Shown here: one piece after another, positions 3-21,692 of the stretch
Position numbering within the stretch: position 1 is the first letter of the stretch
How the letters are laid out: each line of letters opens with the position of its first letter
Assembly: GCA_041674325.1 (NCBI GenBank)
Contig: JBAYWA010000001.1
Location: 1-27,353 of the forward strand
Origin: Melioribacteraceae bacterium
Lineage (GTDB): Bacteria > Bacteroidota > Ignavibacteria > Ignavibacteriales > Melioribacteraceae
DNA length: 27,353 nt
Reading direction: 5' to 3'
Made by a program: the position numbers and the translations under genes
Notes under the pieces: generated by a model
What the model was told of the DNA's origin: nothing
Seen by the model: only the letters and a program-made list of their open reading frames with translations
Databases searched by the model: none

Positions 3-2222
3 AATCTCAAAGGGACTATTTCCGGAAGAGTAATTGATGAGGTTTCAAACGAGCCTATACCGGGTGTTAATATTATTGTGATGGATTCTGAAAAGGGTGC
101 CGCAACAGACCTGGACGGCGAATTTAAGATATCCAATCTGGAAGCGGGCAATTATCAGCTGCGCATTTCAGCTCTCGGTTACAGCACAATTATCAAATCC
201 GATATAATAGTAAACAATGCAAAACCGACTGTTTTATTGATCAAAATGGTAGGCACATTGATTGAATTGGAAGGAGTGACTGTAAGATCCGGATATTTTG
301 AGATGGATCCAAGTGAAATTGGGAGCGTTGCCAATCTGAGTTATGAGGAAATTCGGCGTTCTCCGGGCGGCTTTGAGGATGTTGTCCGCGCCCTTTCTGT
401 TTTACCGGGTGTGGCGCAGGCAAGCGCGGGAAGAAACGATCTGGTTGTGCGGGGAGGCGCCCCTTCGGAAAACCTTTATATAGTCGATGGTTTTATTGTC
501 CCGAATATAAATCATTTCGGAACCCAGGGAGCAACCGGCGGACCGCTCAGTTTTATCAATCTTGATTTTGTGAGGGAGACAAGTTTTTCCAGCGGAGGAT
601 TCTCTTCTCACTACGGAGATAAACTATCATCAGTGCTTACAATCGATTTAAGGGAGGGAAGAAGTGACACTTTCGGCGGAAAAGGAACTATCTCAGCTTC
701 GCAATTCGGACTGAATCTGGAGGGCCCGATTGGGCAGAAAGGTAATTTTATATTCTCTCTGAGGCGGAGCTATCTTGATTTTATTTTCAACGCGGCCGGA
801 TTTAATTTCGTACCCGAATATTATGATGCGATGATTAAATTCAATTACGATATTGATTCTAAAAACAGGCTCTCGTATCTCTTCATTGGCGCTTTTGATA
901 AAGTGAAATTCAACAACAATAACTCAGATGATCTGTATGAAAATTCAAGAATACTCGGATCCGATCAGAATACATACATAACCGGACTCTCATACCGGAA
1001 ACTTTTTGATAAGGGGTATTTCAACTTATCGTTGAGCCGGAATTTTACCGATTATGATTCTTCGCAGCGCGATACGCTTTTTAATCCGATATTTTTGAAT
1101 AAATCGCGGGAAGGCGAGAACGAATTGAAAGGGGATCTGATTTATAAAATCTCATCTGAATCCGAATTGAATTTAGGTCTCTCCGCTAAGCTGATAAAAT
1201 TTTCCGCCGACATTAAGCTTCCGAATTTTACGACGAGCTTCGGTGAAAAGCTTAATATCACATCGCTCAATTCCGGGAGAAATTTTACAAAATTCGGATT
1301 TTATACACAGTATATAAATACAATGTTCGAGAGACTGAGAGTGAGTCTGGGAATCAGGGGAGATTACTTCAGCGGTATTAATACAGAATTATATTTTAGT
1401 CCGAGATTCTCATCTTCATTTATGCTCACTGAAATTTCCTCAGTTAATTTTAGCGCGGGCATTTATCATCAGAATCCCTCATATATTTGGCTCATTGCCG
1501 ATGATGCGAATAAAAATCTGAAAGCCGTCCGGGTAAATCAATTTGTTCTCGGATATGAAAGAATGCTGCAGGATGATCTGCGCGTTAAGGTTGAAGGCTT
1601 CTACAAAAAATATGAAGATTATCCCGCCAGTATGTTGCGTCCATATATTGTTCTGGCAAATACCGGAGCCGGTTACGGAGGCGGGGACGACAATTTCTCG
1701 GCATTCGGCCTCGAACCGCTGGCCAGCGCTGGAAAGGGGGAGGTTCACGGAATCGAATTTTCACTCCAAAAAAAATCATCGGACATTCCAAGCTATGGAA
1801 TTGTGAGTGTTACATGGAGCGAGTCGGTCTTTGCCGGATTGGACGGTGTTGAAAGGCCCGGCAGTTACAGTCAAAACTGGATTCTGAATTTAACCGGGGG
1901 ATATATTTTTAACAAAAAGTGGGAAGCTTCGTTCAAATTCAGATTTGCTACGGGCAATCCATATACTCAATTCAACACTGACGGGACTCAGAGTGTTATA
2001 AATTACAATATGTCGAGATTCGATTCCAATCATTCACTGGATGTAAGAGTAGACCGCCGATGGGATTTTGACGGATGGGCAATGATTACGTATATCGATA
2101 TTCAGAATATTTATAACCAAAAAAATACTTATACAATCCGCTGGGACTACAGAAAAGGAAGAGTAGCAGATCAGTCTTCAATAGGGCTGCTTCCGTCTAT
2201 CGGAGTAAGTGTGGAATTTTAA
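3..2222 (+). CDS. TonB-dependent outer-membrane receptor with an N-terminal carboxypeptidase-regulatory-like domain (5'-truncated by the window edge)
   Basis: The frame is open from position 3 (NLKGTISGRVIDEVSNEPIPGVNIIVM...), so the true start lies upstream of the ORF call at 78. It has a plug motif (LPGV...NDLVVRGGAPSENLYIVDG...NINHF), a barrel with LDVRVDRRW and YIDIQNIYN, and a C-terminal Phe (VSVEF). Confidence 0.92.
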   Translation, partial: NLKGTISGRVIDEVSNEPIPGVNIIVMDSEKGAATDLDGEFKISNLEAGNYQLRISALGYSTIIKSDIIVNNAKPTVLLIKMVGTLIELEGVTVRSGYFEMDPSEIGSVANLSYEEIRRSPGGFEDVVRALSVLPGVAQASAGRNDLVVRGGAPSENLYIVDGFIVPNINHFGTQGATGGPLSFINLDFVRETSFSSGGFSSHYGDKLSSVLTIDLREGRSDTFGGKGTISASQFGLNLEGPIGQKGNFIFSLRRSYLDFIFNAAGFNFVPEYYDAMIKFNYDIDSKNRLSYLFIGAFDKVKFNNNNSDDLYENSRILGSDQNTYITGLSYRKLFDKGYFNLSLSRNFTDYDSSQRDTLFNPIFLNKSREGENELKGDLIYKISSESELNLGLSAKLIKFSADIKLPNFTTSFGEKLNITSLNSGRNFTKFGFYTQYINTMFERLRVSLGIRGDYFSGINTELYFSPRFSSSFMLTEISSVNFSAGIYHQNPSYIWLIADDANKNLKAVRVNQFVLGYERMLQDDLRVKVEGFYKKYEDYPASMLRPYIVLANTGAGYGGGDDNFSAFGLEPLASAGKGEVHGIEFSLQKKSSDIPSYGIVSVTWSESVFAGLDGVERPGSYSQNWILNLTGGYIFNKKWEASFKFRFATGNPYTQFNTDGTQSVINYNMSRFDSNHSLDVRVDRRWDFDGWAMITYIDIQNIYNQKNTYTIRWDYRKGRVADQSSIGLLPSIGVSVEF

Positions 2223-3591
2223 ATCGCCTCTTCTTTTCCGGACCGGGTGGGGATTCCCAGATCATCCATTTTCCGGTAGAGTGAAGAGAGGCCTATTTCC
2301 AGCGCTTTGGCGGCCTCGTCTTTATTGTAATCAAATTTTCTGATGGTCTTCAGAATATGCTCCTTTTCAAAATCCTTTATAGCATCCTTAAGCGCGTCGG
2401 GATAGCCTTCCTGAATATTACCTCCTTTTATATGCTCGGCGAGGTCCGCAACTGTTATGGTTTCATTTGAAGCGAAGATTATCGCCCTCTCAATTACATT
2501 TTCCAATTCGCGAACACCGCCTCTCCAATCATGCGCTAAAAGTATTTTCATAGTTGCGTTATCAATACCAATTATCCTCTTACCCATCTCCTTACTGAAC
2601 TTCTCAATGAAATGGCTGACGAGGAGCGGGATGTCTTCCGACCGTTCATTTAAAGACGGGAGTTTTATCTCTATCACATTAAGCCGGTAATAAAGGTCCT
2701 CTCTGAATTCGTTGTCTTCGTCTTTTCAAACAAATCCTGATTTGTAGCCGCTATAATTCTCACATCCGTGGTGACGGATTTAATGCCTCCGACCGGAATG
2801 AACTCGCGGTCTTCTATTGCTCTAAGAAGCTTAACCTGAAGGTTAAGGGGCAGTTCCCCGATCTCATCAAGAAAAAGTGTGCCGCCGTCGGCGACTTTGA
2901 ATAGACCGGTTTTATCTTCTGTTGCTCCCGTAAACGATCCTTTCTTATGACCGAACAATTCACTCTCAATCAGATTTTCCGAGATGGCCCCGCAGTTTAT
3001 TGGCAGAAATATTTTTTCTTTTCTGCCGCTGTTTTTGTGGATAGCTTTTGCGACCAGTTCCTTTCCGGTACCGCTTTTCCCAAAAATTAAAACATTACTG
3101 TTAGTAGGGGCAACCTGAGAGATAATGTCGAAAACTTTTTTCATCGGCTGGCTCTTCCCGATAAGATTAGTAAATCCGGTATCGGAAGAGATTCTTTGTC
3201 TTAAAGATTTGTTCTCGGCTGCGAGCGTTTTATAGTCGATCAGTCTTTTTACTCTTATAATTACATCCTCAAATTCAACGGGCTTAATAAGATAATCATA
3301 AGCTCCGCAGCGCAGCGCGTCGATTGCAGTTTTTACGGAGGCAAATGCTGTCATTATGATAAAAAAAGTTTCCGGTGAAATTTTGGAGGAGGACTCGAGA
3401 AGCTGCATGCCGTCCAGTTTTGGCATTTTAATATCTGAAATCACAACATCATAAGAATTTTCCTGAATCTTTAACAAGGCCTCTTCGCCGTCTCCGGCTG
3501 TATCGGTAATGAAGCCCTCTTCGGCCAGAACCATTTTGAGGGAATCGCGGATCGGTTTCTCATCGTCGACTATAAGAATTTTTGAGGGCAT
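2219..3591 (-). pseudogene. Sigma-54-dependent response regulator (NtrC/AtoC family: receiver, AAA+, Fis HTH), interrupted by a 1-nt frameshift. This is either a pseudogene or a sequencing error.
   Basis: ORF 2674-3591 has the receiver (LIVDDE, SDIKMP), Walker A (GKSGTGKE), ESELFGH..GSFTGA and Walker B (LFLDEIGEL). The conserved NEFREDLYYRLNV continues in another frame and joins ORF 2219-2677 (IEIKLPSL, WRGGVRELENVIERA, HTH NKDEAAKALEIGLSSLYRKM). Confidence 0.85.
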
Positions 3592-6893: not shown

Positions 6894-6911
6894 AGGTTTT
6901 GGCTTTTTACT

Positions 6912-6941
6912 CGCTGGCTCGGTAATTCGAGCCAGCGTTTT
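6912..6941 (+). terminator. Rho-independent terminator-like hairpin between the convergent DUF4139 and neuB genes
   Basis: A perfect 10-bp stem CGCTGGCTCG/CGAGCCAGCG (6912-6921, 6928-6937) with a 6-nt loop is followed by TTTT on the + strand. The flanking TTTACTC/GAGTAAA can extend the pairing. There is no U-tract on the - strand. Confidence 0.7.
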
Positions 6942-6983
6942 GAGTAAACCGGGAGAAAATCAAATCACGAAGATAGGTAGTAC

Positions 6984-7877
6984 TCAGGCGGTAATATTAG
7001 GTTTGATTTTTCTGAGTTTGTCTATGCTTTGATATTCACTGCCGTAGACTTTTTTCACTCCATCTCCCAGCGCTTTTTCAAGGTCGCGAATATCCTGAAC
7101 AAGTTTTAGCATTCCGTTCACCTCAACTGAAGCGGCCTGATCGGTTCCCCACATCGCGCGGTCTAGTGTAATATGCCTCTCAACAAAGGCGGCGCCCAGT
7201 GCGACCGCGCCGAGTGTCGGGGCTAAGCCGGTTTCATGTCCGGAATAACCGATAGGCACTTCCTGGAATTTTTCTTTGTACGTTTTTATCACATTCAGAT
7301 TTAACTCCTCCAGAGCGCATGGATAATTTGAAGTAGTCTGGGCGATCATCAAATTATCTGTGCTCAAAATTTCCACAGCTTCTTCAATCTCATCTATTGC
7401 GGACATGCCCGTGGAGAGAATTACGGGTCTTCCTGTGGCTTTAATTTTTCTGAGAAGCTTGTGGTCAGTCAGACAGGCAGAAGCGATTTTATGCATAACT
7501 GGTTTGAATTTTTCCATAAAGTTCAACGCCTCTTCATCCCAGGGAGAAGCAAACCAATCAATCCCTTTCTGCCTGCAATATCCATCAATCTCCAGATATT
7601 CTTCGAATCCGAATTCAACTTTATGGCGGTATTCGAGATACGTTATTCTTCCCCAGGGAGTTTCTCTTTCGATATTCCATTGATCTTTAGGCACGCACAA
7701 TTCGGGTGTTCGCTTTTGAAATTTAACAGCGTTGCAGCCGGCGAAGACGGCTCCGTCGATCAATTTTTTCGCGAGTTCCAGCGATCCGTTATGATTTATC
7801 CCGATTTCGGCGATAATATAAACGGGTTCTCCGTCTCCGATCCATCTATTTCCGACTTTAACTTTGCTAATTTTCAT
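6984..7877 (-). CDS. neuB: NeuB-family ulosonic acid (phosphate) synthase, short form lacking the C-terminal SAF/antifreeze-like domain
   Basis: Motifs IAEIGINHNGS, AVKFQKR, FASPWD, KIASA, ILSTGMS, TSNYP, IGYSGHE and VERHITLDR..WGTDQAAS. It is 297 aa and ends right after LGDGVKKV. Confidence 0.93.
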   Translation of the reverse strand: MKISKVKVGNRWIGDGEPVYIIAEIGINHNGSLELAKKLIDGAVFAGCNAVKFQKRTPELCVPKDQWNIERETPWGRITYLEYRHKVEFGFEEYLEIDGYCRQKGIDWFASPWDEEALNFMEKFKPVMHKIASACLTDHKLLRKIKATGRPVILSTGMSAIDEIEEAVEILSTDNLMIAQTTSNYPCALEELNLNVIKTYKEKFQEVPIGYSGHETGLAPTLGAVALGAAFVERHITLDRAMWGTDQAASVEVNGMLKLVQDIRDLEKALGDGVKKVYGSEYQSIDKLRKIKPNITA

Positions 7878-8410
7878 CTGCCCCTTTTATTAATTGTTTT
7901 TGCCTCGATAATTAATTCAGCCAGATCTCTGAAGGCCCCGCAACCGCCGTTACTTTCTACAACCACATCAACGATGTTTTTGGCAAACTTTGTAGCATCA
8001 TTTGGACAAGCTGAGAGACCAACACGCTTCAATATTTCCAGATCGTTTGTATCGTCACCGATAAATGCTATCTCCCCGGCACTCAGATTTTTTCTGTTGA
8101 TAATATCCTCTAGTGTCTTTTCCTTTTCATAAACTCCCATGTGCAGTTCATCAATATTTAACTTTTGAGCTCTTGATTTGACTATCAGGGTATTCTCACG
8201 GGTAATAATTCCGGTTTCAACCCCAACAAGTTTTTTCAGGCGTTCAACACCCATCCCGTCTCTTATAGAATACCGCTTCATCAATTCACCCTTTTCGGAA
8301 TAATAAACGCCGGTGTCCGTTAGAACGCCATCGACATCCGTTAAAAGCAATTTAATTTTAGAAGCGCGCTTAAGAAGCTGGCTCCTTGTCAATTTTTTTT
8401 TCATACTCAT
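7874..8410 (-). CDS. HAD phosphatase of the KdsC/YrbI family (probably a nonulosonate-9-phosphate phosphatase)
   Basis: Motif I DVDGVLTD, DGMG, motif II IITRE, K and motif IV AFIGDDTND. Its stop overlaps the neuB start (ATGA). Confidence 0.9.
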   Translation of the reverse strand: MSMKKKLTRSQLLKRASKIKLLLTDVDGVLTDTGVYYSEKGELMKRYSIRDGMGVERLKKLVGVETGIITRENTLIVKSRAQKLNIDELHMGVYEKEKTLEDIINRKNLSAGEIAFIGDDTNDLEILKRVGLSACPNDATKFAKNIVDVVVESNGGCGAFRDLAELIIEAKTINKRGR

Positions 8411-8476: not shown

Positions 8477-9280
8477 TTACCAGCAGGTCCAGCCGCCATC
8501 GACAACAAGGTTTGCCCCGGTCATATAAATTGACGCGTCGCTGGCAAGGAAAATCAATGCTCCTCTATAATCCGAAGGATTTGCCATTCTTCCAAGCGGA
8601 GTTTTAGTCGAATATTTTTCAACGAAAAATTCATCCTGATTATTAAACACGCCGCCGGGTGTAAGAGTGTTAACGCGCACTCCATCCTTTCCCCAGTATG
8701 CAGCCAGATATTTAGTGAACATAATCACGGCCCCTTTTGTGGCGGAGTAAGCAGGCGGCTTATAAAAAGACTGTGATCCGTCCTCTTTGATATATAACGA
8801 TTGGTCCGGCGCTGTTAAACCGTATGTAGACGCTATGTTTATTATACTACCCGATCTTTGTTTTGCCATCTCAGTCCCTATAATCTGTGATGCTAAAAAA
8901 ACGCCGGTCAGATTCACATCAACAGATTTTTGCCACAATTCAAGAGGATAATTTTCAAATTTTGACTGTTCGCTTGCGGCTTTTGGATCTTCGAACATAT
9001 CATTAATTGCGGCATTGTTCACAAGGATATCAATTTGTCCGAACTTCCTGATTATTGTATCTTTTAAAATTTTGACCGATTCCGGTTTAGTCACATCAAG
9101 CGCGGCGCCGAGTGATTCTGTTGCAAGGGTTCCGGCAAAATTCACGCATCCGCTTTCGTCAATATCGGCCACTACGACATTCGCCCCTGCCTCACTTAGA
9201 GCACGGCAATGTTCCCGGCCTATCAAGCCGAGAGCTCCTGTAACGACCGCTGTTTTATTCTCCAGATTAAAAATATTCAT
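8477..9280 (-). CDS. Short-chain dehydrogenase/reductase (PtmA-like, probably NAD-preferring)
   Basis: TGALGLIG, an acidic residue after beta-2 (VADID), NNAA, INIASTYG, catalytic YSATK, VRVNTLTPGG and NLVVDGG. Confidence 0.92.
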   Translation of the reverse strand: MNIFNLENKTAVVTGALGLIGREHCRALSEAGANVVVADIDESGCVNFAGTLATESLGAALDVTKPESVKILKDTIIRKFGQIDILVNNAAINDMFEDPKAASEQSKFENYPLELWQKSVDVNLTGVFLASQIIGTEMAKQRSGSIINIASTYGLTAPDQSLYIKEDGSQSFYKPPAYSATKGAVIMFTKYLAAYWGKDGVRVNTLTPGGVFNNQDEFFVEKYSTKTPLGRMANPSDYRGALIFLASDASIYMTGANLVVDGGWTCW

Positions 9281-9293
9281 TCAGATCTCAAAT

Positions 9294-10628
9294 TTATTTT
9301 TTTACCGGTTTCATATTGAAATTATCCACTTTTCTAAACACTGGCAGCACAGGTTTTCCCAGAAGCATTTCCTTTAAATTATTTTTTTTGACCGCGTTTT
9401 TAAGGAACACAAGTGATTCTTCCAGCGCCTGGAGAGTGTAATTTACATCTGCATCGCTATGGGAAAAAGAAAGATTATGAAATCCCTGCCACAAAACGCC
9501 ACGTTTTATCATCTCCTGCTGCATCAGAGATTTCTGAATAAGGGGATCTCCCGCTTTTTCATCGAATGTAGCCATTGACCGCCAATTGTATCCGACAGCC
9601 TTCGTGTAATCCATTCCCAAATTCTGAGCTATTGTATTATATCCTTCCTTCAATTTTTTTCCCTGGTCGCTGAGATATTGAGGAACGTTTTTATCCCGCA
9701 GCTCCTCTATAGTTGCTTTCGTTGCCGCCAGAGAGAGTGCCTCGCCTCCGAACGTTGTATAAAAAAAGATATCATCATCAGCAAGATCCATAATTGATCT
9801 TTTACCTGTCAGAATAGAGATGGGCATTCCGTTGGCGACTGCTTTTGAGAAGGTTGCCAGATCCGGGGTAATTCCGAAATACTCCTGAGCCCCGCCGAGC
9901 GCCATTCTGAAACCCGTCCACATTTCATCGAATATAAGCACAATACTTTTTTCTTTACAGAGATCTGCCAGCTTATGCAGAAAATTATCTTTCGGCTCAG
10001 CAAATACAACTGGTTCCAGTATAATTGCCGCCACATCATCGTCAATCGATTTTCTTACAGAGTCGATGTCATTGTAATTAAAAGTATATGATATTGCCTG
10101 TACAGCTTCGGGTATTCCATGATTACGGGCGGTTACAGCTATGTACCAATCGTGCCATCCGTGGTAGCCGCAGCATAGAATTTTATTCTTCCCTGTATGA
10201 GCGCGTGCAAGACGGACTGCGGCACTTGTTGCATCAGCACCGGTTTTGCTGTACCGGACGGCTTCAGCATTCGGCACGACTTCCCTAATTAATTCCGCAA
10301 CTTCCACTTCAAGCGGGTGCATCATCGAAAAAGTAATTCCGTCTTTCAATTGTTCTTTTATCGCCGTGTCAATTTTGGGATAGGCATAGCCAAGTGAAAG
10401 GGGACCAACGCCCATCATGTAATCGATATATTCATTGCCGTCAACATCCCACACATGAGACCCGCTGCCCCGCACTAAATATTTGGGAGCTATCCCGTTC
10501 ACCCACTGACCGGGTCCCTTTGCAAGGGTTTGGGTGACTGATGGTATTAATCCAAGCGCGCGATTGTATAATTCGTCGGATTTAGAAATATCAGGATAAT
10601 TATTTTGAAGTGAAATTTTGTTCGGCAT
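9294..10628 (-). CDS. Class III PLP-dependent aminotransferase (glutamate-1-semialdehyde aminomutase-like), probably acting on a sugar
   Basis: VWDVDGNEYIDY..G.GPLSLG, GYHGW, ILEP, LIFDEMWTGFR and PLP-lysine TFSKAVANGMP. A GAGG RBS precedes the ATG. Confidence 0.92.
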   Translation of the reverse strand: MPNKISLQNNYPDISKSDELYNRALGLIPSVTQTLAKGPGQWVNGIAPKYLVRGSGSHVWDVDGNEYIDYMMGVGPLSLGYAYPKIDTAIKEQLKDGITFSMMHPLEVEVAELIREVVPNAEAVRYSKTGADATSAAVRLARAHTGKNKILCCGYHGWHDWYIAVTARNHGIPEAVQAISYTFNYNDIDSVRKSIDDDVAAIILEPVVFAEPKDNFLHKLADLCKEKSIVLIFDEMWTGFRMALGGAQEYFGITPDLATFSKAVANGMPISILTGKRSIMDLADDDIFFYTTFGGEALSLAATKATIEELRDKNVPQYLSDQGKKLKEGYNTIAQNLGMDYTKAVGYNWRSMATFDEKAGDPLIQKSLMQQEMIKRGVLWQGFHNLSFSHSDADVNYTLQALEESLVFLKNAVKKNNLKEMLLGKPVLPVFRKVDNFNMKPVKK

Positions 10629-10742: not shown

Positions 10743-11654
10743 CTAATCTCTAGAAGCTAATCGCTTAAAAATTTTGCCAGCAATTCTATCAGCTGTAAAT
10801 CCCTCATACTCTAAAACATCATTCAGCAAACCCGGCCTGAACCACTTGTTCATCAAAGCGAAAGGGAGAACATCCGCGGTTTTTTTGTTCCTCAGAAGCA
10901 CTTCGGCAAGTATGGAATAGAGGCCGCCGGTAACAAAATGATCTTCCAGTGTAACGATCAATCTGCATTCTTCTGCCGCTCTCAGGATTGCGGCTTCGTC
11001 CACCGGTTTCGGTGTTCTAATATTAATCAGCCGTACCGATACCCCTTTTGATTCAAGTATCTCTTTTGCCTTGAATGCCTCTCCAAATAAAAAACCGTAA
11101 ACCAGAATTGCTACATCATTCCCGCCTCCAAAAACTTCTGCTTTTCCGATCTCAAAGCTGTTATGTTCCACTAAGTTTTTTGTATTGTTATACCGGATAT
11201 AGAATGGGGAAGGGCTTGTAAAAACTGCTTTCAGGCCTTTCAGCATATCGTCCTCGTCCGCGGGGCAGAATAGATTTACGTTTGGAATTCCTCTCATGAT
11301 TGAGACATCCTCGATTGCCTGGTGTGTTGGTCCGTTGCCGTCCGATAAAAATCCCGGTACCGCCCCTACAATTTTAACCGGAAGATTGGCAATTCCCACG
11401 TCGGTACGGATAAATTCGAATGCTCGCATCGTTAAAAATGTAGCAAGGGCATGAACAATCGGCGTCCTGCCGCGTAATGCCAATCCGGCAGCCATTCCTA
11501 TCATTGTCTGTTCGGTAATGCCCGTATCTATAAAATTATTTTTGATCAGAGGGGGAAGATTTCTGAAAGCTGCCCTGTTCTCCGAAGTCATTATTATATA
11601 ACGGTCATCATTATTTATAAGATCGAGTACAATATCTGCATATGTCATTATCAT
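10743..11654 (-). CDS. Transketolase-like ThDP enzyme, C-terminal (pyrimidine-binding and C) subunit
   Basis: DTGITEQTMIGMAAGLA, GPTHQAIED, FCPAD, YIR, IGKAEV, KPVD and LEDH..TGGL. ATGA overlap with the N-terminal subunit gene. Confidence 0.92.
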   Translation of the reverse strand: MIMTYADIVLDLINNDDRYIIMTSENRAAFRNLPPLIKNNFIDTGITEQTMIGMAAGLALRGRTPIVHALATFLTMRAFEFIRTDVGIANLPVKIVGAVPGFLSDGNGPTHQAIEDVSIMRGIPNVNLFCPADEDDMLKGLKAVFTSPSPFYIRYNNTKNLVEHNSFEIGKAEVFGGGNDVAILVYGFLFGEAFKAKEILESKGVSVRLINIRTPKPVDEAAILRAAEECRLIVTLEDHFVTGGLYSILAEVLLRNKKTADVLPFALMNKWFRPGLLNDVLEYEGFTADRIAGKIFKRLASRD

Positions 11655-12508
11655 CTCGCAACAATGGTTTCTGAAGTTAACTTGGTTTTTTTTGCGCCGT
11701 GCAATTCTTTGAGGAGCTGCTCAATCTCTTCCTGCTTGAAATTTACGAACCAGCGGTCTGCCCGTTTTTCTATGCTTGGCAATCCCTTGCCTCTAACCGT
11801 CTCGGCAATTACTACGGACACCTTACCTTTTTCGAATGGAAATTTTTTGAATGTCTCCTCCATCTTCTCAAAATTATGGCCGTTTACTTTTCTGACTCTG
11901 CATCCGAAAGCTTCAAATTTTTTGTTTAGCGGTTTGAGAGGAATTAAATCTTCAGTCTGCATATTAGCCTGAAACTGATTCCTGTCAACTACTATTAGCA
12001 AATTATCAAGATGATATGCAGATGCAACAAGAAGCGCTTCCCACATTGATCCTTCGTTAAGCTCTCCGTCTCCAACCACAACTACAACTCTGTTCTTTTG
12101 TTTGCGAAGTTTGCAGTCGATAGCAACTCCCATCGCGACTGAAAGATTGTGGCCGAGCGAACCGGAATGAAATTCTATGCCGGGAATGTTTCTGTTAGGA
12201 TGCCAGTAGATGAAATCATTTGTGCTCAGATGATTTTTCAGCCTTTCTTTTTCAAGCAGACCAATTTCTACATATGTGCCGTAGAGAGCCGGTACATCGT
12301 GTCCTTTCGAGAGGAAAAAGTAGTCCCTCTTGGGATCACTGAGATTTTCTTTGGATACTTTCAGAAATTCCTTATAGAGGTAAACTATCAGATCGGCACA
12401 GGAGAGGGATGCGCCGATAAAACAGCCGCCACGCCCGCTCATTCCGATAATATGTTCTCGGACTCTTAGCGCCGTTTCCTGTAATTCGAGTAATTTTTTT
12501 TTATTCAT
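11651..12508 (-). CDS. Transketolase-like ThDP enzyme, N-terminal (diphosphate-binding) subunit
   Basis: RDYFFLSKGH, HP...PGIE..SGSLG and the ThDP motif GDGELNEGSMWEA...LDNL..VVDRN. Also FG..V..VNGH and TVRGKG. Confidence 0.92.
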   Translation of the reverse strand: MNKKKLLELQETALRVREHIIGMSGRGGCFIGASLSCADLIVYLYKEFLKVSKENLSDPKRDYFFLSKGHDVPALYGTYVEIGLLEKERLKNHLSTNDFIYWHPNRNIPGIEFHSGSLGHNLSVAMGVAIDCKLRKQKNRVVVVVGDGELNEGSMWEALLVASAYHLDNLLIVVDRNQFQANMQTEDLIPLKPLNKKFEAFGCRVRKVNGHNFEKMEETFKKFPFEKGKVSVVIAETVRGKGLPSIEKRADRWFVNFKQEEIEQLLKELHGAKKTKLTSETIVAR

Positions 12509-13308
12509 TTTAAGTTCAATTTGTTTTTGTATTCGTCAATGTGATTAAGTTCATTAAGATGATTTTCGTACCAGTATTTACCTAGATATTTTCTGTTGAT
12601 TGAGGCAATTTCCGGTTTTCGTACAAGTAAATCTAATATATCGTTAAGACTAAAAGTAGGATTCCCGGGATAAAGTTCTTCATAAATATTTTTTATTAGC
12701 CGGTAATCCTCCTCATAATCGATTGTCCACCGATGGGAGGCTGAAAAATCCTTACCTGCCTCCCATCCTATATTTGCAACTCTGAATTTACCGGGATTTT
12801 CCCAGAAGTATGGGGTGGTGTGTTCGCGTTCAAAAGTCTTCCCGGCTTCTTTCCATGCGGTTATAAGTGCTTTAAAAGAAAAAATTTCAACATCGTTGCC
12901 GTCCGGATAGCTTGCCGGATGAAGGTTGCTGACATAATCGAATTTATCATTACTTTTAATAAAGAACGATAATACTTTGTCGATTATTCCCGGGTCAATC
13001 AGCGGGCAGTCGGAAGGAATTTTCACTACCGCATCTGCGCCGTACTTTTTGCCCGCCTCATAATGCCTGTCAAGAAGATCCGCCAGATTTCCCCTGAAGC
13101 ATTCAATCTTTTCCCTTTTGCACAATTCAGCCACCGGATCATCGTCTTTATACAGAGAAGTAGCAACAACAATCATTCCGGCTAATTTAGAAAAGGAGAC
13201 ACGTTCTGTCATCCGGAGTAGAAGAGGTTTACCCAGAATAGGCAGCATTATTTTTCCCGGTAATCTGGTAGATGACATTCTCGCCTGTATGACTGTAACA
13301 ATCTTCAT
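12505..13308 (-). CDS. SpsF-type acylneuraminate/ulosonate cytidylyltransferase (NTP_transf_3 family)
   Basis: IQARMSSTRLPGK, PSDCPLIDP, YPDGNDVE, REHTTPY and RWTIDYEED. ATGA overlaps on both sides. Confidence 0.88.
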   Translation of the reverse strand: MKIVTVIQARMSSTRLPGKIMLPILGKPLLLRMTERVSFSKLAGMIVVATSLYKDDDPVAELCKREKIECFRGNLADLLDRHYEAGKKYGADAVVKIPSDCPLIDPGIIDKVLSFFIKSNDKFDYVSNLHPASYPDGNDVEIFSFKALITAWKEAGKTFEREHTTPYFWENPGKFRVANIGWEAGKDFSASHRWTIDYEEDYRLIKNIYEELYPGNPTFSLNDILDLLVRKPEIASINRKYLGKYWYENHLNELNHIDEYKNKLNLK

Positions 13309-15545: not shown

Positions 15546-16826
15546 TTATTTTACCAATTCACCCTCTTTATAATCATACTCGCGTATTATTATTCCGCTT
15601 TCATCGTAAGTATAGCATTTACCTTCCAGAAGATTGTTCTTATAGCTCATCAGATCGGAAATGCCGCCGTCAGGAAAATACCTTTTAAGTAGTCCATCCA
15701 TTATACCTCCTTTATAATCAACCTCAGAGGCGATTTTACCGTTCTTAAAAAAGATTTTTACAGTACCATGGAGTTTGTCGTCGATGTAAATCCGTTCCGA
15801 TTCCAATTCTCCGGCGGGGTAAAAAGTTTTGGATTGGCCGCTCCGTATATCATCAATAAAATTTTCTTCCGCTGTTTTGAGTCCGGATTCATCAAAAATA
15901 ATAGCCGTTCCGTTTTTCATTCCGTTTCGATATGTCGAAATTTCCGCGAGCGTTCCCCCGTCGTGATAAAATTTACAATCTCCTTCAACGACGCCATTCA
16001 CATAATGCAATTCCGATTTAATGAATCCGCTTGGATAATAATCGGTTATCAGTCCATCCAGAAGGCCGTTACGGAAAAATACTTTTCTTCGAAGGGTGCC
16101 CTCATCCCAATATTCGTCAAAATTTTCTTCGACTTTACTGACTTTGCTTCCGTAGTCGAATCTCTCCCGCTTCACTATCTGTCCGTCGGCATATGTATCA
16201 ATTACTTTTATCTTCCCGTCGGGATAATAAAAGTATGATGTTCCATCGAGTTTGTCGTTTTTGTATTTTGCCTCGAGTGCCAGAGTACCGAAATCGGAGT
16301 AAACTTTACTTATTCCTTCGAGCTTATCGTTTATGTAATTCCGTTCGACCTCAACTTTGCCGTTCTCAAAAAAAATTTTGGATAAACCATTGAGTTTCCC
16401 TCCCCTGTAATTCCATACGGCCTGTAATTTGCCGCTCTTGTAGTAGGTTTGACTTGGTCCCTCCTGAATATTATCCAAATAGACGGGTTCTGCCCAAAGT
16501 TCGCCGGATTCATAATACCATTTTGAAAGGCCTTCCAATTTGCCATTCCGGTAATTCCACTCCATACTCTTAGTGCCGTCTTCAAAGTACCAGATGGAAA
16601 TTCCCTCCTCCTTGCCGTTTTCGAAGTTCCACTCTTTCCAGAGTTTTCCGCTTTCATAATATTCTTTATAGATTCCGATTCGAATTCCGTTAAGATAACT
16701 TCCCTCGGATTTCAGTCTTCCGTTCTGGTAGTATTCCTTTTTTACCTCTGCATTCTGCGCGGGTATTGAAGAAACCGAGATAAGTGCGAAAGTGATTATT
16801 GTGAAAAAGTTGATTTTCCGGCTCAA
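15546..16826 (-). CDS. Secreted MORN-variant repeat protein (YwqK-like repeats)
   Basis: TTG start, a signal-peptide-like N-terminus (…ITFALISVSSIPAQ) and 16 repeats of about 24 aa with the consensus x-x-Y-Y-x-x-G-x-L-x-x-E-x-x-Y-x-N-G-x-x-x-G. Confidence 0.85.
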   Translation of the reverse strand: MSRKINFFTIITFALISVSSIPAQNAEVKKEYYQNGRLKSEGSYLNGIRIGIYKEYYESGKLWKEWNFENGKEEGISIWYFEDGTKSMEWNYRNGKLEGLSKWYYESGELWAEPVYLDNIQEGPSQTYYKSGKLQAVWNYRGGKLNGLSKIFFENGKVEVERNYINDKLEGISKVYSDFGTLALEAKYKNDKLDGTSYFYYPDGKIKVIDTYADGQIVKRERFDYGSKVSKVEENFDEYWDEGTLRRKVFFRNGLLDGLITDYYPSGFIKSELHYVNGVVEGDCKFYHDGGTLAEISTYRNGMKNGTAIIFDESGLKTAEENFIDDIRSGQSKTFYPAGELESERIYIDDKLHGTVKIFFKNGKIASEVDYKGGIMDGLLKRYFPDGGISDLMSYKNNLLEGKCYTYDESGIIIREYDYKEGELVK

Positions 16827-16923
16827 GATTTATTCGATTTTATTTATACCGAAATTAAACACAAAAAAGTTAATGTGAAATGGAGAAGAGTTGTTTAAAT
16901 TTGCTCTTGGAAAAGGAGCAATT

Positions 16924-17325
16924 ATGTTTACCACCAAAGTTAAAGTCTATTTCTACGACGCGGACCCCGCCGGAATTATTTTCTACGCCAGTTTATTCAA
17001 ATTTGTTCACGCGGCGTATGAAGATTTTATGAGAGGATTGCATACCGAGCGGGATTATTTTTTCGATAAAGATTATATACTGCCGATAATTCACGCGGAG
17101 GCCGATTACGTAAGGCCGATTAAGGTCGGCGATGAATTGAGAGTTGATGTAGTCGTGAGTCTGCTGAAAAATTCTTCTTTTGAATTAAGTTATAAATTTT
17201 ACAAATCGGACGGACAGTTTACAGCAATCGCCAAAACGGTTCATGTTTGTGTGCAGAAAGATCAGTTCAAGAAAATTGAACTGCCGAAGGAATTTCTGGA
17301 AAAGATGAAGCTTAATCTAAATTGA
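16924..17325 (+). CDS. Hot-dog fold acyl-CoA thioesterase (4HBT class), probable DHNA-CoA hydrolase (MenI function)
   Basis: The ATG at 16924 follows an AAGGAG RBS. It has YFYDADPAGIIFY, HAEADY..P...GD.L.V and SSF.LSY. Its 3' end overlaps menE by 14 bp. Confidence 0.8.
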   Translation: MFTTKVKVYFYDADPAGIIFYASLFKFVHAAYEDFMRGLHTERDYFFDKDYILPIIHAEADYVRPIKVGDELRVDVVVSLLKNSSFELSYKFYKSDGQFTAIAKTVHVCVQKDQFKKIELPKEFLEKMKLNLN

Positions 17326-18808
17326 GCTCTTTGAGAAGTGCAGGACGGATTATTTTACCCATCTCATTTCTTGGCAGAATGGCGAGTTGAAAAATTCGTT
17401 TTGGTATTTTATATCCGGCGAGTTTTGTTTTTAAAAATTTTTTCAGATCATTCTCTTTAATATCAGCACATTCAACAGCCGCACAGACAATCTGACCCCA
17501 ATTTGAATCTTCTAAAGAAAAAACATAAACATCGCTGACTCCCGGGAATGTACTGATCGCGTTTTCGACTTCGGCACAGCTGACATTCTCGCCCCCGGTA
17601 ATTATAAGATCCTCACGTCTCGATTCAACGAACAGGTATCCATTATTATCAATTCTGCCTAAATCCCCGGTATGATACCATCCGTTTATAATTTTTCCGG
17701 CTGTAGCCTCAAAATCCTTGTAATATTCTTTGAACAAAGAATCCGAAGCGATATAAATTTCTCCCGACTCCGGCACCATCGAATTGGCCTCATCATTTTC
17801 AGGCAGACTGTGCTGAATCATAATTCTGTTCTGCCCCAAGGGCTTTCCTGATGAGGAGATGTAATTTCTGAAAGATGTTGCCGGCAGGGCGGTAACCATT
17901 GAACAAGTTTCAGTTGAGCCGTATACTTTTACAACCGGCCATCCTCTGTCAATTGCATCCAGATAGAGTTGTTCTTCCGACGGTCCTCCGCCCAGAAATA
18001 AAAATCTTAAATTTGAAGCCGGAGAGAAATTATTCTTTAATAAACGGTGAAGCATTGTTGGAACTAATGAGATGCACGTCGGACGAAATTGCCTAATCCC
18101 GGCAACGATATTCTCATATCTTAACCCGGAAGGGAACACAAGCGCGGAGCCGGAGATTAGTGAACGGATCAAAATCATAAATCCGCCGATATGAAAGAGA
18201 GGGAGGGAAGAGAACCAAATATCATCATCCGATAGCATCGCGAAAGAATCGGTTGCTTTAACGCTCTGATAGAGACTTCGGAATGTATGAACAACAGCCT
18301 TGGGATCGCCGGTGCTTCCTGATGTGAACATTATCAAAGAAGGATCAAGAGGAGAATAATCTGCTGACCTTAGCACATTATGCTTTTCCGGATTCGTAAC
18401 TATATGATCTTTTGTCTCCCGGAATGGAAAGTGAATTTTATCGGGAAAACTCAATTCTGAATATTGCGCCGCTGTTTTTTCATCAAAAATGAGAAATTTG
18501 ATCTCAACTTTGTTTATCTGCTTTTCAAGTTCGGCCGGCAGAAGTTGCGTGCTTATCGGAACAGGAACCGCCCCAATAATCCAGAGAGCATTTATGATAG
18601 TTAAAAAATTATAGTTGTGACTGAATAAAACAGCAATCCGGTCGCCCTTACAAATTCCATTGTCAATCATAAATTCAGCGGCGGCAAAACATTCATCCGC
18701 CAATTCCCCGTAAGTGATAATCCTATCTTCCAGAATCACCGCGTTTTTACCCGGCTGCTTTTCAGATTGTTCAATAATCCAATGCTTTGTACTTCCCGCG
18801 GATATCAT
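17312..18808 (-). CDS. menE: o-succinylbenzoate-CoA ligase
   Basis: Adenylate-forming motifs FTSGSTGDPKAV, LPLFHIGG, YGSTE, YHTGDLG, RREDLIITGGENV, AGYKIPK and NEMGKI. It is the last gene of the men operon. Confidence 0.9.
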   Translation of the reverse strand: MISAGSTKHWIIEQSEKQPGKNAVILEDRIITYGELADECFAAAEFMIDNGICKGDRIAVLFSHNYNFLTIINALWIIGAVPVPISTQLLPAELEKQINKVEIKFLIFDEKTAAQYSELSFPDKIHFPFRETKDHIVTNPEKHNVLRSADYSPLDPSLIMFTSGSTGDPKAVVHTFRSLYQSVKATDSFAMLSDDDIWFSSLPLFHIGGFMILIRSLISGSALVFPSGLRYENIVAGIRQFRPTCISLVPTMLHRLLKNNFSPASNLRFLFLGGGPSEEQLYLDAIDRGWPVVKVYGSTETCSMVTALPATSFRNYISSSGKPLGQNRIMIQHSLPENDEANSMVPESGEIYIASDSLFKEYYKDFEATAGKIINGWYHTGDLGRIDNNGYLFVESRREDLIITGGENVSCAEVENAISTFPGVSDVYVFSLEDSNWGQIVCAAVECADIKENDLKKFLKTKLAGYKIPKRIFQLAILPRNEMGKIIRPALLKELNLD

Positions 18809-19872
18809 AAGAGCTTCAGATCAAAAAAATTAGGATATGTCTCCGGATTAAAATCGATTCTCCCGTTTTTTATTACATACGGATCGGGGAATAGACTGTT
18901 CTTAAAATAATCCGAAGTATCGAGGCCATGGGGAAGGGAATGGTTAACTGAAGCAGCCAGAAACACTAAAGCGTTTTTTCCTACCGGACTTTCAAACGAT
19001 GAGGAGATAATAATTTTCTTTTTTTTCTTCTCCGCTTCTTTGATAAGTTTCAATGAGGAGAGGATTCCGCCCAGAATCATCGGTTTAAGGATAAGAAATT
19101 CAACATTGCAGTGATTTATCAGGTCTTCAGCTCTTTCAAATGAAACAAGCGATTCATCAAGTGCGATAGGTACGGGTGAATCTTCAATCAAATGGAAATT
19201 GCTGCACACAAATTCGCACGGTTCCTCAACGTAGTCGATATTAAATTGCTGGAAACGGTCAAGGTATTCCAACGCTTCATCAGCGCTCCATGCCCGGTTC
19301 GCATCCAGTCTCAAATTAATATTACCCCCGAATTCATTACGTATCTCCTTTAGGAGGAGAAAATCATCTAAAACATCATTCCGGCCTATTTTAATTTTAA
19401 ACGTGGTGAATCCATCACGAATCTTCCTCCTGATTTTATTCAGCACAAAATCCTTGCTGCCGATTCCTACAACAGCATTTGAAGGGACGGATAAATTAAA
19501 TTCATCAAAATAATCAGATAATATTTTTCTGTTCCGGAGGATTAACAGATTTACCAATGCCTGCTCAAAAGCGAATCGGAGTGACGGGGTAAGATTGTGT
19601 CTTACTGTAAAAACCTGGACCGATTCGAAATTATCGTCAATCTTTTCTCCCGGAATACGGGTCTGTAAACTTTCCAATAGTTGCTTCGAATCATCAAGAG
19701 ACTCACTGCTGAATCCGGGCAATGGCGAGCATTCTCCGGAAGCGCGGTTATTAAACTCGTCTCTCAATTCTATTATAAATCCGCTACGTTGACTTATTGT
19801 TTTTGTTGAAGTATGAAATGGAGATTGCAGATCGAGAGAAAAATAAATGTATTTAAATTCTGATATTGTCAT
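18805..19872 (-). CDS. menC: o-succinylbenzoate synthase (enolase superfamily)
   Basis: GECSPLPGFS.E, the KxK motif FKIKIG, metal ligands LDAN..W, VEEP and ALDES, LKP, and HGL.T. Confidence 0.9.
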   Translation of the reverse strand: MTISEFKYIYFSLDLQSPFHTSTKTISQRSGFIIELRDEFNNRASGECSPLPGFSSESLDDSKQLLESLQTRIPGEKIDDNFESVQVFTVRHNLTPSLRFAFEQALVNLLILRNRKILSDYFDEFNLSVPSNAVVGIGSKDFVLNKIRRKIRDGFTTFKIKIGRNDVLDDFLLLKEIRNEFGGNINLRLDANRAWSADEALEYLDRFQQFNIDYVEEPCEFVCSNFHLIEDSPVPIALDESLVSFERAEDLINHCNVEFLILKPMILGGILSSLKLIKEAEKKKKKIIISSSFESPVGKNALVFLAASVNHSLPHGLDTSDYFKNSLFPDPYVIKNGRIDFNPETYPNFFDLKLL

Positions 19873-20786
19873 AATAGAATTCCGGCTGCGAAAAGCAATC
19901 CATAGAGGGCTGATAGCTTGGCCGTAAGTTCCAGAGTCTTATTTAATTCGCTGCCCCTCTTTGTATAGATCATTCTGATCAACTTTACCGCGAGGGGTAA
20001 ACTCAGAAGGGGAAGAAAGACAAAAATTTCTTTTTTAAATGTAAAGTAAACTATAAAGAGTATAGAATAAGAAATCAGCATGAAAAAGAGGTACTGAAAT
20101 CGTCCGAACTTTTCCCCGAAAATCACAATAAGTGTTCTCTTTCCGTTTGAACTGTCCTCTTCCCGGTCCCGGTAATTATTGACTACCAGAATGTTTGTTA
20201 TTAATGCGCCCACCGGCACGGAAGCCCAGAATGCCATGGCGCTGAACTCATTTGCCTGCACATAGTAAGTGCCCACAGTTCCTACAAAACCGAAGAAAAG
20301 AAATACCGCAATATCTCCCAATCCGTTATAGGCCAATGGAAACGGACCTGCCGTGTATGCGATCCCGGCCAGAATTGAGAGAATTCCAATAATCAGTATG
20401 AACCAGCCGCTGTGAATTATCAGATACAAACCGAGGAGGAAACTTAAACCGAATGAAAAATATATTCCGAACTTCATCTCGTTGACAGACAGGAGTCCCG
20501 AGACAGTTGCTCTCTGGGGACCAACGCGGTCAGCTTTATCGGAACCGCGGAGGAAATCGAAAAGATCATTAACAAAATTAGTTCCGATTTGAATAAGCAG
20601 CGAACATAGAAGGGCAATTAAAGCCGCCAATGCATTAAATTTAAAATCATTAATCGCAATTGCAGATCCCACTACAACCGGAACAATTGCGGCTGCAAGA
20701 GTTCTTGGCCGGCTTGCCAGAATCCAGGCATTAGTTTTTGAGGTTAAATTATTCAGGGATTGAGCCATTCTTTGTCTTGTTTTCAA
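19869..20786 (-). CDS. menA: 1,4-dihydroxy-2-naphthoate polyprenyltransferase
   Basis: W..ASRPRTL, NFVNDLFD..RGSD...R.GP, YT.GP..LAY.GLGD and NNYRD..ED...GKRTL, with multiple transmembrane helices. An alternative start at MAQSL is possible. Confidence 0.93.
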   Translation of the reverse strand: MKTRQRMAQSLNNLTSKTNAWILASRPRTLAAAIVPVVVGSAIAINDFKFNALAALIALLCSLLIQIGTNFVNDLFDFLRGSDKADRVGPQRATVSGLLSVNEMKFGIYFSFGLSFLLGLYLIIHSGWFILIIGILSILAGIAYTAGPFPLAYNGLGDIAVFLFFGFVGTVGTYYVQANEFSAMAFWASVPVGALITNILVVNNYRDREEDSSNGKRTLIVIFGEKFGRFQYLFFMLISYSILFIVYFTFKKEIFVFLPLLSLPLAVKLIRMIYTKRGSELNKTLELTAKLSALYGLLFAAGILL

Positions 20787-20851
20787 TTCGATTAATCGGT
20801 TAATAAAGTGAGCAGCGAAGCATTCAGAGTGAATACTTCATATCTTTTTGA

Positions 20852-21685
20852 TTACGGCACCCTTGGAAATTTTTTGAAGTCCGGTTTCCGTTTTTCATTG
20901 TAGGCATTTTTGCCTTCCTGCGCCTCCTCGCTCATATAATAGAGCAATGTAGCGTTGCCGGATAGCTCCTGGATTCCGGCCTGTCCGTCCAATTCAGCGT
21001 TGAAAGCTGATTTGAGTAACCGGAGAGCCAGAGGACTCATTTCTAGAATTTCTCTTGCCCATTGAATACCTTCCGCCTCCAGTTGGTCGATTGGAACAAC
21101 CTTATTCACGAGTCCCATATCAAGCGCTTCCTTAGCATTATACTGACGGCAGAGAAACCATATCTCCCGGGCTTTTTTCTGTCCTACGATGCGTGCAAGG
21201 TAGCTGGCGCCGAATCCTCCGTCGAAACTGCCCACTTTGGGTCCGGTCTGTCCGAAGACAGCGTTATCCGCCGCAATCGACAGGTCGCAGACCACATGAA
21301 GTACATGCCCGCCTCCTATGGCATAACCAGCAACAAGCGCAATAACCGGCTTCGGGATGGAACGGATCTGCTTTTGAACATCGAGTATGTTCAGCCGTGG
21401 TACACCGTCTTTTCCGATATAACCTTTGTTCCCGCGAATCGATTGGTCGCCCCCGGAACAAAAAGCATATTTCCCGTCCTTAGATGGTCCTTTTCCTGTT
21501 AACAGAATTACTCCGATAGATGAATCTTCCCGCGCGTCAGCAAAAGCGTCAAAAAGTTCCAATGTTGTTTCCGGCCTGAACGCATTTCTCTTTTCGGGGC
21601 GGTTTATAGAAATCTTTGCAATACCATCCATCTTTTCGTAAATGATATCTTTATATTCTTTTGCGCTCTTCCAATCTAAACTCAT
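20852..21685 (-). CDS. menB: 1,4-dihydroxy-2-naphthoyl-CoA synthase
   Basis: [47 protein letters not shown] and EEAQEG..A..EKR.PDF. Confidence 0.97.
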
Positions 21686-21692
21686 TATTACC

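What the first reader, a model, noticed from the sequence alone, without database searches (positions are those of the whole stretch)
8477..10628. SDR plus class III aminotransferase: a possible hydroxyl-to-amine converting pair
Seen: adjacent genes, 13 bp apart. Established: Shewanella makes 8-amino-Kdo with a dehydrogenase (KdnB, a metal-dependent ADH) and a class III aminotransferase (KdnA). Canonical nonulosonate pathways use DegT-family aminotransferases instead. Inference: an analogous oxidation and transamination of a KDN-like acid using an SDR in place of KdnB. This could give an amino-KDN or even unacetylated neuraminic acid by a new route. No acyltransferase is encoded, so the amine may stay free and neutralise surface charge.
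Basis: partly seen in the sequence, partly recalled or inferred. Interest (0 to 1): 0.6.

Follow-up and report, generated by a model that had tools for sequence, protein, structure and literature searches.

The report
Coupled dehydrogenase-aminotransferase for amino-Kdn sugar

Summary
In detail: an intact class III aminotransferase (AT3, 444 aa) lies 13 bp from a short-chain dehydrogenase (SDR, 267 aa) in an 8-gene operon of a Melioribacteraceae-like genome. The pair is tightly coupled: adjacent in 34 of 35 carrier genomes of the class, and fused in 30 protein clusters elsewhere. AT3 is not HemL. The SDR belongs with ulosonate-locus SDRs, a family in which ElaC and EpaB act at C8 of nonulosonates. 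The phosphatase carries the Kdn-9-phosphate signature.

Best reading: redox plus transamination on the side chain of a Kdn-type sugar, probably giving 8-amino-Kdn, CMP-activated and probably lipid-bound (0.5). Main rival: the remodelled transketolase, almost always present, makes the carbonyl that is aminated (0.28).

No paper on the cassette was found in the library searched. This scan has already reported the cassette on other DNA at least ten times.

The parts
9294..10628 (-). Class III (GSA-aminomutase-like) PLP aminotransferase, 444 aa; member of a clade tied to ulosonate loci; not HemL
   Evidence: PF00202; best NCBIfam PRK06209 389 bits, cut-off 486; TIGR00713 hemL 250, cut-off 527; residues and tree
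8477..9280 (-). Classical SDR, 267 aa, NAD(H)-type (D39), with the extended substrate loop of PtmA/ElaC-like ulosonate SDRs
   Evidence: PF13561; best NCBIfam PRK09186 186.6 bits, cut-off 255; residue map and tree
7874..8410 (-). HAD phosphatase, closest to B. thetaiotaomicron Kdn-9-P phosphatase; E72 and K83 align with its E56 and K67
   Evidence: E72 60/60, K83 59/60
6984..7877 (-). Short NeuB-type PEP-condensing synthase, 297 aa, no C-terminal SAF domain
   Evidence: PF03102 257 bits only; below NeuB and PseI cut-offs
12505..13308 (-). SpsF-type cytidylyltransferase (putative CMP-ulosonate synthetase)
   Evidence: PF02348; a 44% paralogue sits next to a PseI-like synthase on contig C4 of the same genome; SpsF role in PMC7439481
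11651..12508 (-). Transketolase-like N subunit; thiamine-binding residues kept, both catalytic histidines (E. coli H26 and H261 equivalents) replaced by Phe (F30, F254)
10743..11654 (-). Transketolase-like C subunit; phosphate-binding residues and the D469 equivalent lost (N107), H473 equivalent kept
   Evidence: fused to AT3 in P0001-P0006
13305..14312 (-). GT-B fold protein without a Pfam family; ulosonyl transferase or NeuC-like epimerase/hydrolase, undecided
   Evidence: model pLDDT 93.9; Z 17.9 NeuC, 15.1 TagF, 13.2 polysialyltransferase; weak BFO_1060 transferase hit E 8e-6
6912..6937 (.). Terminator-like hairpin (11 pairs) between the end of the operon and the convergent muiA-family gene
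   Evidence: pattern match only

Best explanation
SDR and AT3 act one after the other on the same carbon of a nine-carbon Kdn-type ulosonate. The short NeuB condenses PEP with a hexose 6-phosphate, the HAD enzyme removes the 9-phosphate, and the SpsF-type enzyme adds CMP. The NAD-dependent SDR oxidises a side-chain hydroxyl, most likely at C8, and AT3 traps the ketone as an amine, which pulls the unfavourable oxidation. The expected product is an 8-amino-Kdn type sugar (same mass as neuraminic acid), transferred by the GT-B protein to a membrane acceptor, probably a lipid. Shown: intact genes, families, tight coupling, fusions, exclusion of HemL, conserved residue pattern. Inferred: substrate, carbon position, direction of the SDR, free versus CMP-bound stage, acceptor. 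The role of the transketolase-like enzyme is not explained by this model.
For: Coupling. Thirty clusters of natural AT3-SDR fusions with AT3 55-64% and SDR 51-62% identical to the window proteins; the five contexts read are all this cassette or its close form. The SDR falls in a supported clade (97/94) of mostly ulosonate-locus SDRs. Most members have 22-29 residues between catalytic Ser and Tyr, against 13 in ordinary SDRs. Its Y153, Y163, P175, Q215, F219, Y223 reproduce the spacing of ElaC Y147, Y157, P165, Q205, F209, Y213, which the authors model around CMP-8-keto-legionaminate (PMC13656337). EpaB and AciE, also SDR-type, are tied to C8 epimerisation (PMC12053666). The sister clade of AT3 is fused to Gfo/Idh/MocA dehydrogenases, SpsF, NeuB, DegT and GNAT domains, so this aminotransferase type repeatedly pairs with a sugar oxidoreductase. 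The HAD signature points to nine carbons. One fusion cassette has no transketolase, and none of either type was found in its genome. Lipid link: fatty-acid-hydroxylase-family gene in 31 of 35 carrier genomes and only 1 non-carrier; flippase-like, PAP2, LplT and acyltransferase neighbours.
Against: No biochemistry. ElaC is proposed to reduce, with the Gfo/Idh/MocA partner oxidising; if this SDR keeps that facial preference it would not oxidise the native C8 epimer of Kdn. The same loop and residues occur in apparently catabolic SDRs on Klebsiella and Sinorhizobium plasmids, so they do not prove CMP binding or C8. ElaC itself was not aligned; the match rests on residue spacing and on PRK09186 members from legionaminate loci. 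A transketolase-like gene is beside 33 of 35 copies and is also fused to AT3, which this model leaves idle. The window's genome lacks the hydroxylase at this locus and no copy was found in its 74% complete assembly.
Confidence: 0.5

Rival explanations
1. Three-enzyme arm: the SDR makes a carbonyl on the ulosonate, the remodelled thiamine enzyme adds (or removes) a two-carbon unit there, and AT3 aminates the new carbonyl. The product is a chain-extended, branched or shortened amino-ulosonate. SDR and AT3 then act on different carbons and there is no simple hydroxyl-to-amine swap.
For: Transketolase-like genes beside 33 of 35 copies. A second, fused type fills the same slot in many loci. Nine of 11 tested genomes of this class without a cassette copy carry that second type elsewhere at 52-57%; it was not found in 3 cassette-free relatives. 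C-subunit-AT3 fusions exist. Both types lack the D469 and H461 equivalents, so the acceptor is not an ordinary aldose phosphate.
Against: One Gemmatimonadales cassette with the AT3-SDR fusion has no transketolase. The split type has lost both catalytic histidines. The second type could be an unrelated lineage trait; the class-wide test used a strict threshold.
Confidence: 0.28
2. Precursor route: transketolase, AT3 and SDR build an amino-aldose phosphate before NeuB acts. If that were mannosamine 6-phosphate the product would be unacetylated neuraminic acid.
For: No kinase, NeuC-annotated gene or DegT enzyme in the operon. The SAF-less NeuB lacks the domain that contacts N-acyl groups (own knowledge). 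An aminoglycosphingolipid is reported from Chlorobium limicola (cited in PMC11762602); that its sugar is free neuraminic acid is from memory and could not be read.
Against: The transketolase-like enzyme has lost its phosphate-binding residues. The SDR resembles enzymes acting on finished nonulosonates. Free neuraminic acid cyclises and is unstable (own knowledge).
Confidence: 0.12
3. The pair, with the thiamine enzyme and the hydroxylase, builds the acceptor (an amino-polyol or sphingoid-like lipid backbone), and the sugar transferred is plain Kdn.
For: Lipid-type neighbours; two Phe residues in the transketolase-like active site; class III relatives include enzymes for long-chain substrates.
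Against: Close SDR relatives are fused to cytidylyltransferase, NeuB and Gfo domains, not to lipid enzymes; the AT3 sister clade sits in sugar loci; the hydroxylase is missing in 4 of 35 carriers, this genome included.
Confidence: 0.08
4. AT3 is the haem-pathway glutamate-1-semialdehyde aminomutase HemL and its position is incidental.
For: Best PDB matches are GSA aminomutases; no other hemL is in this 74% complete assembly.
Against: 250 bits against a cut-off of 527. Four of four tested relatives carry a separate hemL at 562-609 bits as well as the cassette gene at 238-254. The clades are separate and about 30% identical; the gating loop is 9 residues shorter; W237, F209 and K37 replace HemL residues. 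AT3 was found in only 35 of 121 genomes of the class.
Confidence: 0.02

Closest known systems
Kdo8N pathway of Shewanella oneidensis (KdnB, KdnA, KdsB; Gattis 2013, summarised in PMC4402001)
   Same: Proposed logic: oxidise a ulosonate hydroxyl at C8, transaminate, activate with CMP; no acetyltransferase in the cluster.
   Different: KdnA is DegT-type, here class III. Kdo C8 is a primary alcohol, Kdn C8 a secondary one. The cassette has its own NeuB, phosphatase, GT-B protein and transketolase-like enzyme; kdsA is elsewhere in the genome.
ElaABC (8-epi-legionaminate, PMC13656337) and EpaAB / AciE (8-epi-pseudaminate, 8-epi-acinetaminate, PMC12053666)
   Same: SDR of the same broad family with the extended loop and matching Tyr, Gln, Phe positions; linked to a cytidylyltransferase; keto intermediate on the side chain.
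   Different: There the SDR pairs with a Gfo/Idh/MocA or aldo-keto reductase and the outcome is epimerisation. Here the partner is an aminotransferase. K174 replaces the residue that lines ElaC's 7-N-acetyl pocket (M164), the loop is 4 residues longer, and the PRK09186 cut-off is not reached.
CMP-Kdn pathway of Bacteroides thetaiotaomicron (Kdn-9-P synthase, phosphatase, CMP synthetase; PMC6200933)
   Same: NeuB-type synthase plus HAD phosphatase with the E56/K67 pair plus cytidylyltransferase.
   Different: Synthase lacks the SAF domain, the cytidylyltransferase is SpsF-type, and four extra genes (AT3, SDR, two transketolase-like subunits) are inserted.
HemL (glutamate-1-semialdehyde 2,1-aminomutase)
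   Same: Fold, PLP lysine, nearest solved structures.
   Different: About 30% identity, separate clade, altered substrate residues, shorter gating loop, coexists with true hemL.

Membership tests
HemL | Score above TIGR00713 cut-off (527 bits) | tested here: not met
   249.7 bits
HemL | Groups with hemL of related genomes and keeps its substrate residues and gating loop | tested here: not met
   separate clades; loop 31 versus 40 residues; substitutions at positions 33, 34, 37, 209, 237, 288
HemL | Aminomutase activity or hemL complementation | not testable with these tools
   needs bench work
KdnA/KdnB (Kdo8N) system | Aminotransferase of the KdnA (DegT/DnrJ/EryC1) family | tested here: not met
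   5k8b matches a PF01041 query at E 8e-31; the window enzyme matches only PF00202
KdnA/KdnB (Kdo8N) system | Fe-containing alcohol dehydrogenase KdnB | tested here: not met
   partner is an SDR; no PF00465 match over cut-off in the incomplete own genome
KdnA/KdnB (Kdo8N) system | KdsB-type synthetase and eight-carbon substrate | tested here: inconclusive
   cytidylyltransferase far below KdsB cut-offs; phosphatase closer to the Kdn-9-P enzyme; substrate not measurable
PtmA/ElaC-type C8 SDR (PRK09186) | Score above NF006619 cut-off (255 bits) | tested here: not met
   186.6 bits, though the best of 214 families; a control from a legionaminate locus passes at 268.8
PtmA/ElaC-type C8 SDR (PRK09186) | Extended loop and conserved Tyr, Pro, Gln, Phe pocket residues | tested here: met
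   against PRK09186 members; spacing against ElaC numbers; also met by catabolic relatives, so not specific
ElaABC/EpaAB epimerase module | Second oxidoreductase (Gfo/Idh/MocA or aldo-keto reductase) in the cluster | tested here: not met
   none in the operon or among recurring neighbours of 80 loci
Bacteroides-type CMP-Kdn pathway | HAD phosphatase with the E56/K67 pair | tested here: met
   E72 and K83 align with the positions mutated in PDB 4hgq and 4hgr; conserved 60/60 and 59/60; that this pair marks nine-carbon specificity is from own knowledge
Bacteroides-type CMP-Kdn pathway | Score above NF058599 cut-off (180 bits) | tested here: not met
   157.6 bits, best hit
Bacteroides-type CMP-Kdn pathway | Synthase uses mannose 6-phosphate | not testable with these tools
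   needs assay
Canonical transketolase | H26, H261, D469 and phosphate-binding residues (E. coli numbering) | tested here: not met
   F30, F254, N107, Y5, V99 in the window proteins; conserved in about 50 orthologues
Bacterial CMP-ulosonate transferases (GT-B) | GT-B fold with acidic-Gly and His-Pro motifs, closer to sialyltransferases than to epimerases | tested here: inconclusive
   fold and invariant Q109, E110, G111, H230, P231, S272 present, but the best structural matches are NeuC and 2-epimerases

The most novel reading that the evidence does not exclude
The cassette makes a so far undescribed amino-ulosonic acid, either 8-amino-Kdn or a chain-extended or branched form built by a remodelled thiamine enzyme, and attaches it to a membrane lipid as a ganglioside-like head group. 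It occurs in 35 of 121 sampled genomes of this class and in loci labelled as at least eight phyla. It would be the first class III aminotransferase shown to aminate a sialic-acid-like sugar.
Probability: 0.35. Interest if true: 0.72.

Novelty: new variant of a known kind. Interest (0 to 1): 0.5.

Why it matters
If true, it adds a new sugar and a new enzyme combination to the sialic-acid family, built from enzymes unrelated to KdnA/KdnB. It would also name a widespread unknown amino-lipid or surface glycan of soil, freshwater and wastewater bacteria. It corrects a common mis-annotation: many genes labelled glutamate-1-semialdehyde aminomutase in sugar loci belong to this separate clade. It is directly testable: cultured carriers exist (Melioribacter sp. 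OK-6-Me, Mucilaginibacter sp. L3T2-6, Taibaiella koreensis, Arcicella sp. LKC2W, Methylomagnum ishizawai), and single-chain AT3-SDR fusions make the coupled assay simple. A regioselective enzymatic route to amino-Kdn would be useful in glycochemistry.

Tried and rejected
1. Primary KdnA/KdnB papers could not be read, so the family of KdnA was tested by sequence against the PDB.
2. Link to the Chlorobium aminoglycosphingolipid: the paper is not held, and the cassette was not found in Chlorobiaceae-sized genomes. The locus labelled Prosthecochloris (L051) lies in a family with only 5 genomes in the sample, so its label is doubtful. Dropped.
3. Co-occurrence with serine palmitoyltransferase: a below-cut-off homologue is in 120 of 121 genomes. 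Uninformative.
4. Single-sequence fold of the GT-B protein failed (pLDDT 39); the alignment-based fold worked but did not separate transferase from epimerase.
5. The class-wide search for the second transketolase type used a strict threshold that can miss split matches, so it gives only a lower bound.
6. Literature searches for the gene combination found no description; the library lacks most subscription journals.
7. The promoter scan was at chance level.
9. No complex prediction was sent: natural fusions already show linkage.

Full report
Observation. The window holds an eight-gene operon on the minus strand, 14312 to 6984. In order: a GT-B protein, an SpsF-type cytidylyltransferase, two transketolase-like subunits, a class III aminotransferase (AT3, 10628-9294), an SDR (9280-8477), a HAD phosphatase and a short NeuB. 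AT3 and SDR are intact, 13 bp apart, and keep their catalytic residues. The closest loci (78-87% AT3 identity) come from Ignavibacteria and Melioribacter genomes. The assembly is 74% complete.

The pair is a real unit. All 47 full-flank loci chosen by AT3 also hold the SDR, GT-B protein, SpsF and NeuB; the phosphatase is in 39 and the transketolase-like genes in 36. Among loci chosen by the SDR, 42 of 43 with enough upstream sequence have AT3 before it. In 121 genomes drawn from the class, 35 have the AT3 orthologue and 34 of these have the SDR next to it; related genomes are not independent, so this is a profile and not a statistic. Thirty protein clusters are natural AT3-SDR fusions in the same order, and the five whose contexts were read lie in this cassette. 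Record labels span Ignavibacteriota, Bacteroidota, Chlorobiota, Acidobacteriota, Nitrospirota, Chloroflexota, Pseudomonadota, Gemmatimonadota and Desulfobacterota; most are unverified labels of assembled genomes.

AT3 is not HemL. It scores 250 bits against a cut-off of 527. Four relatives carry a true hemL elsewhere as well as the cassette gene. The two form separate clades at about 30% identity; AT3 has a gating loop nine residues shorter and an aromatic pocket (W158, W161, Y162, F209, W237, F288). Its sister group is fused to Gfo/Idh/MocA dehydrogenases, SpsF, NeuB, DegT and GNAT domains, so the whole clade is tied to sugar oxidoreductases and CMP activation.

AT3 is also not a KdnA relative. 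The KdnA structure 5k8b is found by a DegT-family query at E 8e-31 and is not among the best 60 matches of AT3 (the remaining 134 weaker matches were not shown). The Kdo8N pathway remains a model for the logic only (PMC4402001).

The SDR says where the chemistry may happen. Its best family is PRK09186, below cut-off. In a tree it sits in a supported clade with SDRs from legionaminate loci, an elaABC-like triple, and fusions to cytidylyltransferase, Gfo and NeuB domains. One long-branched ordinary SDR also fell in that clade. These SDRs share a long loop and a set of Tyr, Gln and Phe residues whose spacing matches those the ElaC authors place around CMP-8-keto-legionaminate (PMC13656337). EpaB and AciE are further SDR-type enzymes tied to C8 (PMC12053666). 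C8 is thus the best guess. Two cautions apply. Apparently catabolic SDRs share the pattern. And ElaC is proposed to reduce, so D39 (NAD preference) does not fix the direction.

The core points to a nine-carbon, non-acylated sugar. The phosphatase is closest to the Kdn-9-phosphate phosphatase of B. thetaiotaomicron and keeps the two residues mutated in its structures. The NeuB has no SAF domain. Kdo synthesis (kdsA) is encoded elsewhere, and a separate pseudaminate-like cluster lies on contig C4.

The transketolase-like enzyme complicates the two-step story. It keeps the thiamine site but has Phe in place of both catalytic histidines and has lost the phosphate and D469 sites. It lies beside 33 of 35 copies. 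A second, fused type replaces it in many loci, or lies elsewhere in 9 of 11 genomes of this class that lack it in the cassette. It can be fused to AT3. One Gemmatimonadales cassette lacks it altogether. It may therefore supply the carbonyl that AT3 aminates; this is the main rival.

Acceptor and fate of the amine. No polysaccharide export genes recur near the cassette. The recurring neighbours are a fatty-acid-hydroxylase-family gene (31 of 35 carriers, 1 non-carrier), a small multidrug transporter, flippase-like and PAP2 genes, and acyltransferases. This favours a lipid acceptor. It also means the amine may be acylated in some hosts. In this genome the hydroxylase is missing at the locus and no such acyltransferase was found. 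The GT-B protein folds confidently but is as close or closer to 2-epimerases than to sialyltransferases, so the transfer step is inferred.

Unacetylated neuraminic acid. I followed a remembered lead, the aminoglycosphingolipid of Chlorobium limicola (cited). The cassette was found in only 10 of 108 Chlorobiales genomes, none of the size typical of Chlorobiaceae. There is no support for this product here, though it is not excluded.

Verdict. A genuine, widespread, uncharacterised dehydrogenase-aminotransferase module that most likely aminates a Kdn-type ulosonate. It works like Kdo8N synthesis but is not a member of that system, of HemL, or of the ElaABC epimerases. It is a new variant of a known kind. 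No paper on it was found in the library searched. Earlier reports of this scan describe the same cassette on other DNA; they were used as leads only. The tests added here are the fusion evidence, the KdnA correction, the ElaC comparison and the negative Chlorobium test. Interest 0.5.

Noticed in passing
window 2219-3591 (-): A sigma-54-type response regulator appears split into two ORFs (305 and 152 aa) that overlap by 4 bases, suggesting a frameshift (assembly error or pseudogene).
   Followed up: no
window 17312-25606 (-) and 16891-17325 (+): By reading the translations, a complete classical menaquinone operon (menF, D, H, B, A, C, E) with a thioesterase; looks ordinary, not checked against families.
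   Followed up: no
window 6894-6983: The fatty-acid-hydroxylase-family gene that follows NeuB in the same-genus genome G087 and in most relatives is absent here; only 90 bp with a hairpin remain.
   Followed up: partly
L096 1-4168 (own genome contig C4): Second ulosonate cluster: PseC-like, PseG-GNAT fusion, PseI-like NeuB and an SpsF-type synthetase 44% identical to the cassette copy.
   Followed up: partly
L225 9001-14271: Gfo/Idh/MocA-SDR fusion with a cytidylyltransferase-HAD fusion and a short NeuB but no aminotransferase: a candidate pathway for an epimer of Kdn.
   Followed up: no
L187 5992-7718 and L219 4164-5813: SDRs about 40% identical with the same extended loop sit beside a lyase or aldolase, a sugar kinase and an isomerase or dehydratase on Klebsiella and Sinorhizobium plasmids: a possible unknown catabolic route for a sugar acid.
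   Followed up: partly
L186 11391-14453: The Methylomagnum plasmid copy of the cassette is followed by LplT, a GNAT N-acyltransferase and a lysophospholipid acyltransferase.
   Followed up: partly
L013 8044-10023; L097-L101: A fused transketolase type that keeps both histidines but lacks the D469 equivalent takes the place of the split enzyme in many cassettes, or stands alone in genomes whose cassette lacks one.
   Followed up: partly
G080 C2 479225-480034; G023 C116 14292-15035: Possible remnants of lost cassettes: a transketolase-like N subunit with an internal stop, and a lone hydroxylase, in genomes where AT3 and SDR were not found.
   Followed up: no
own genome C363 3-1046: A serine-palmitoyltransferase-like gene below the family cut-off is present in 120 of 121 genomes of the class, hinting at sphingolipid-like lipids in this group.
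   Followed up: partly
L045 1-2882 (-): An inverted, fragmented second copy of the first four cassette genes lies upstream of the intact cassette in a Nitrospirota assembly.
   Followed up: no
window 15546-16826 (-): 426 aa secreted-looking protein made of short repeats of the MORN-like type.
   Followed up: no
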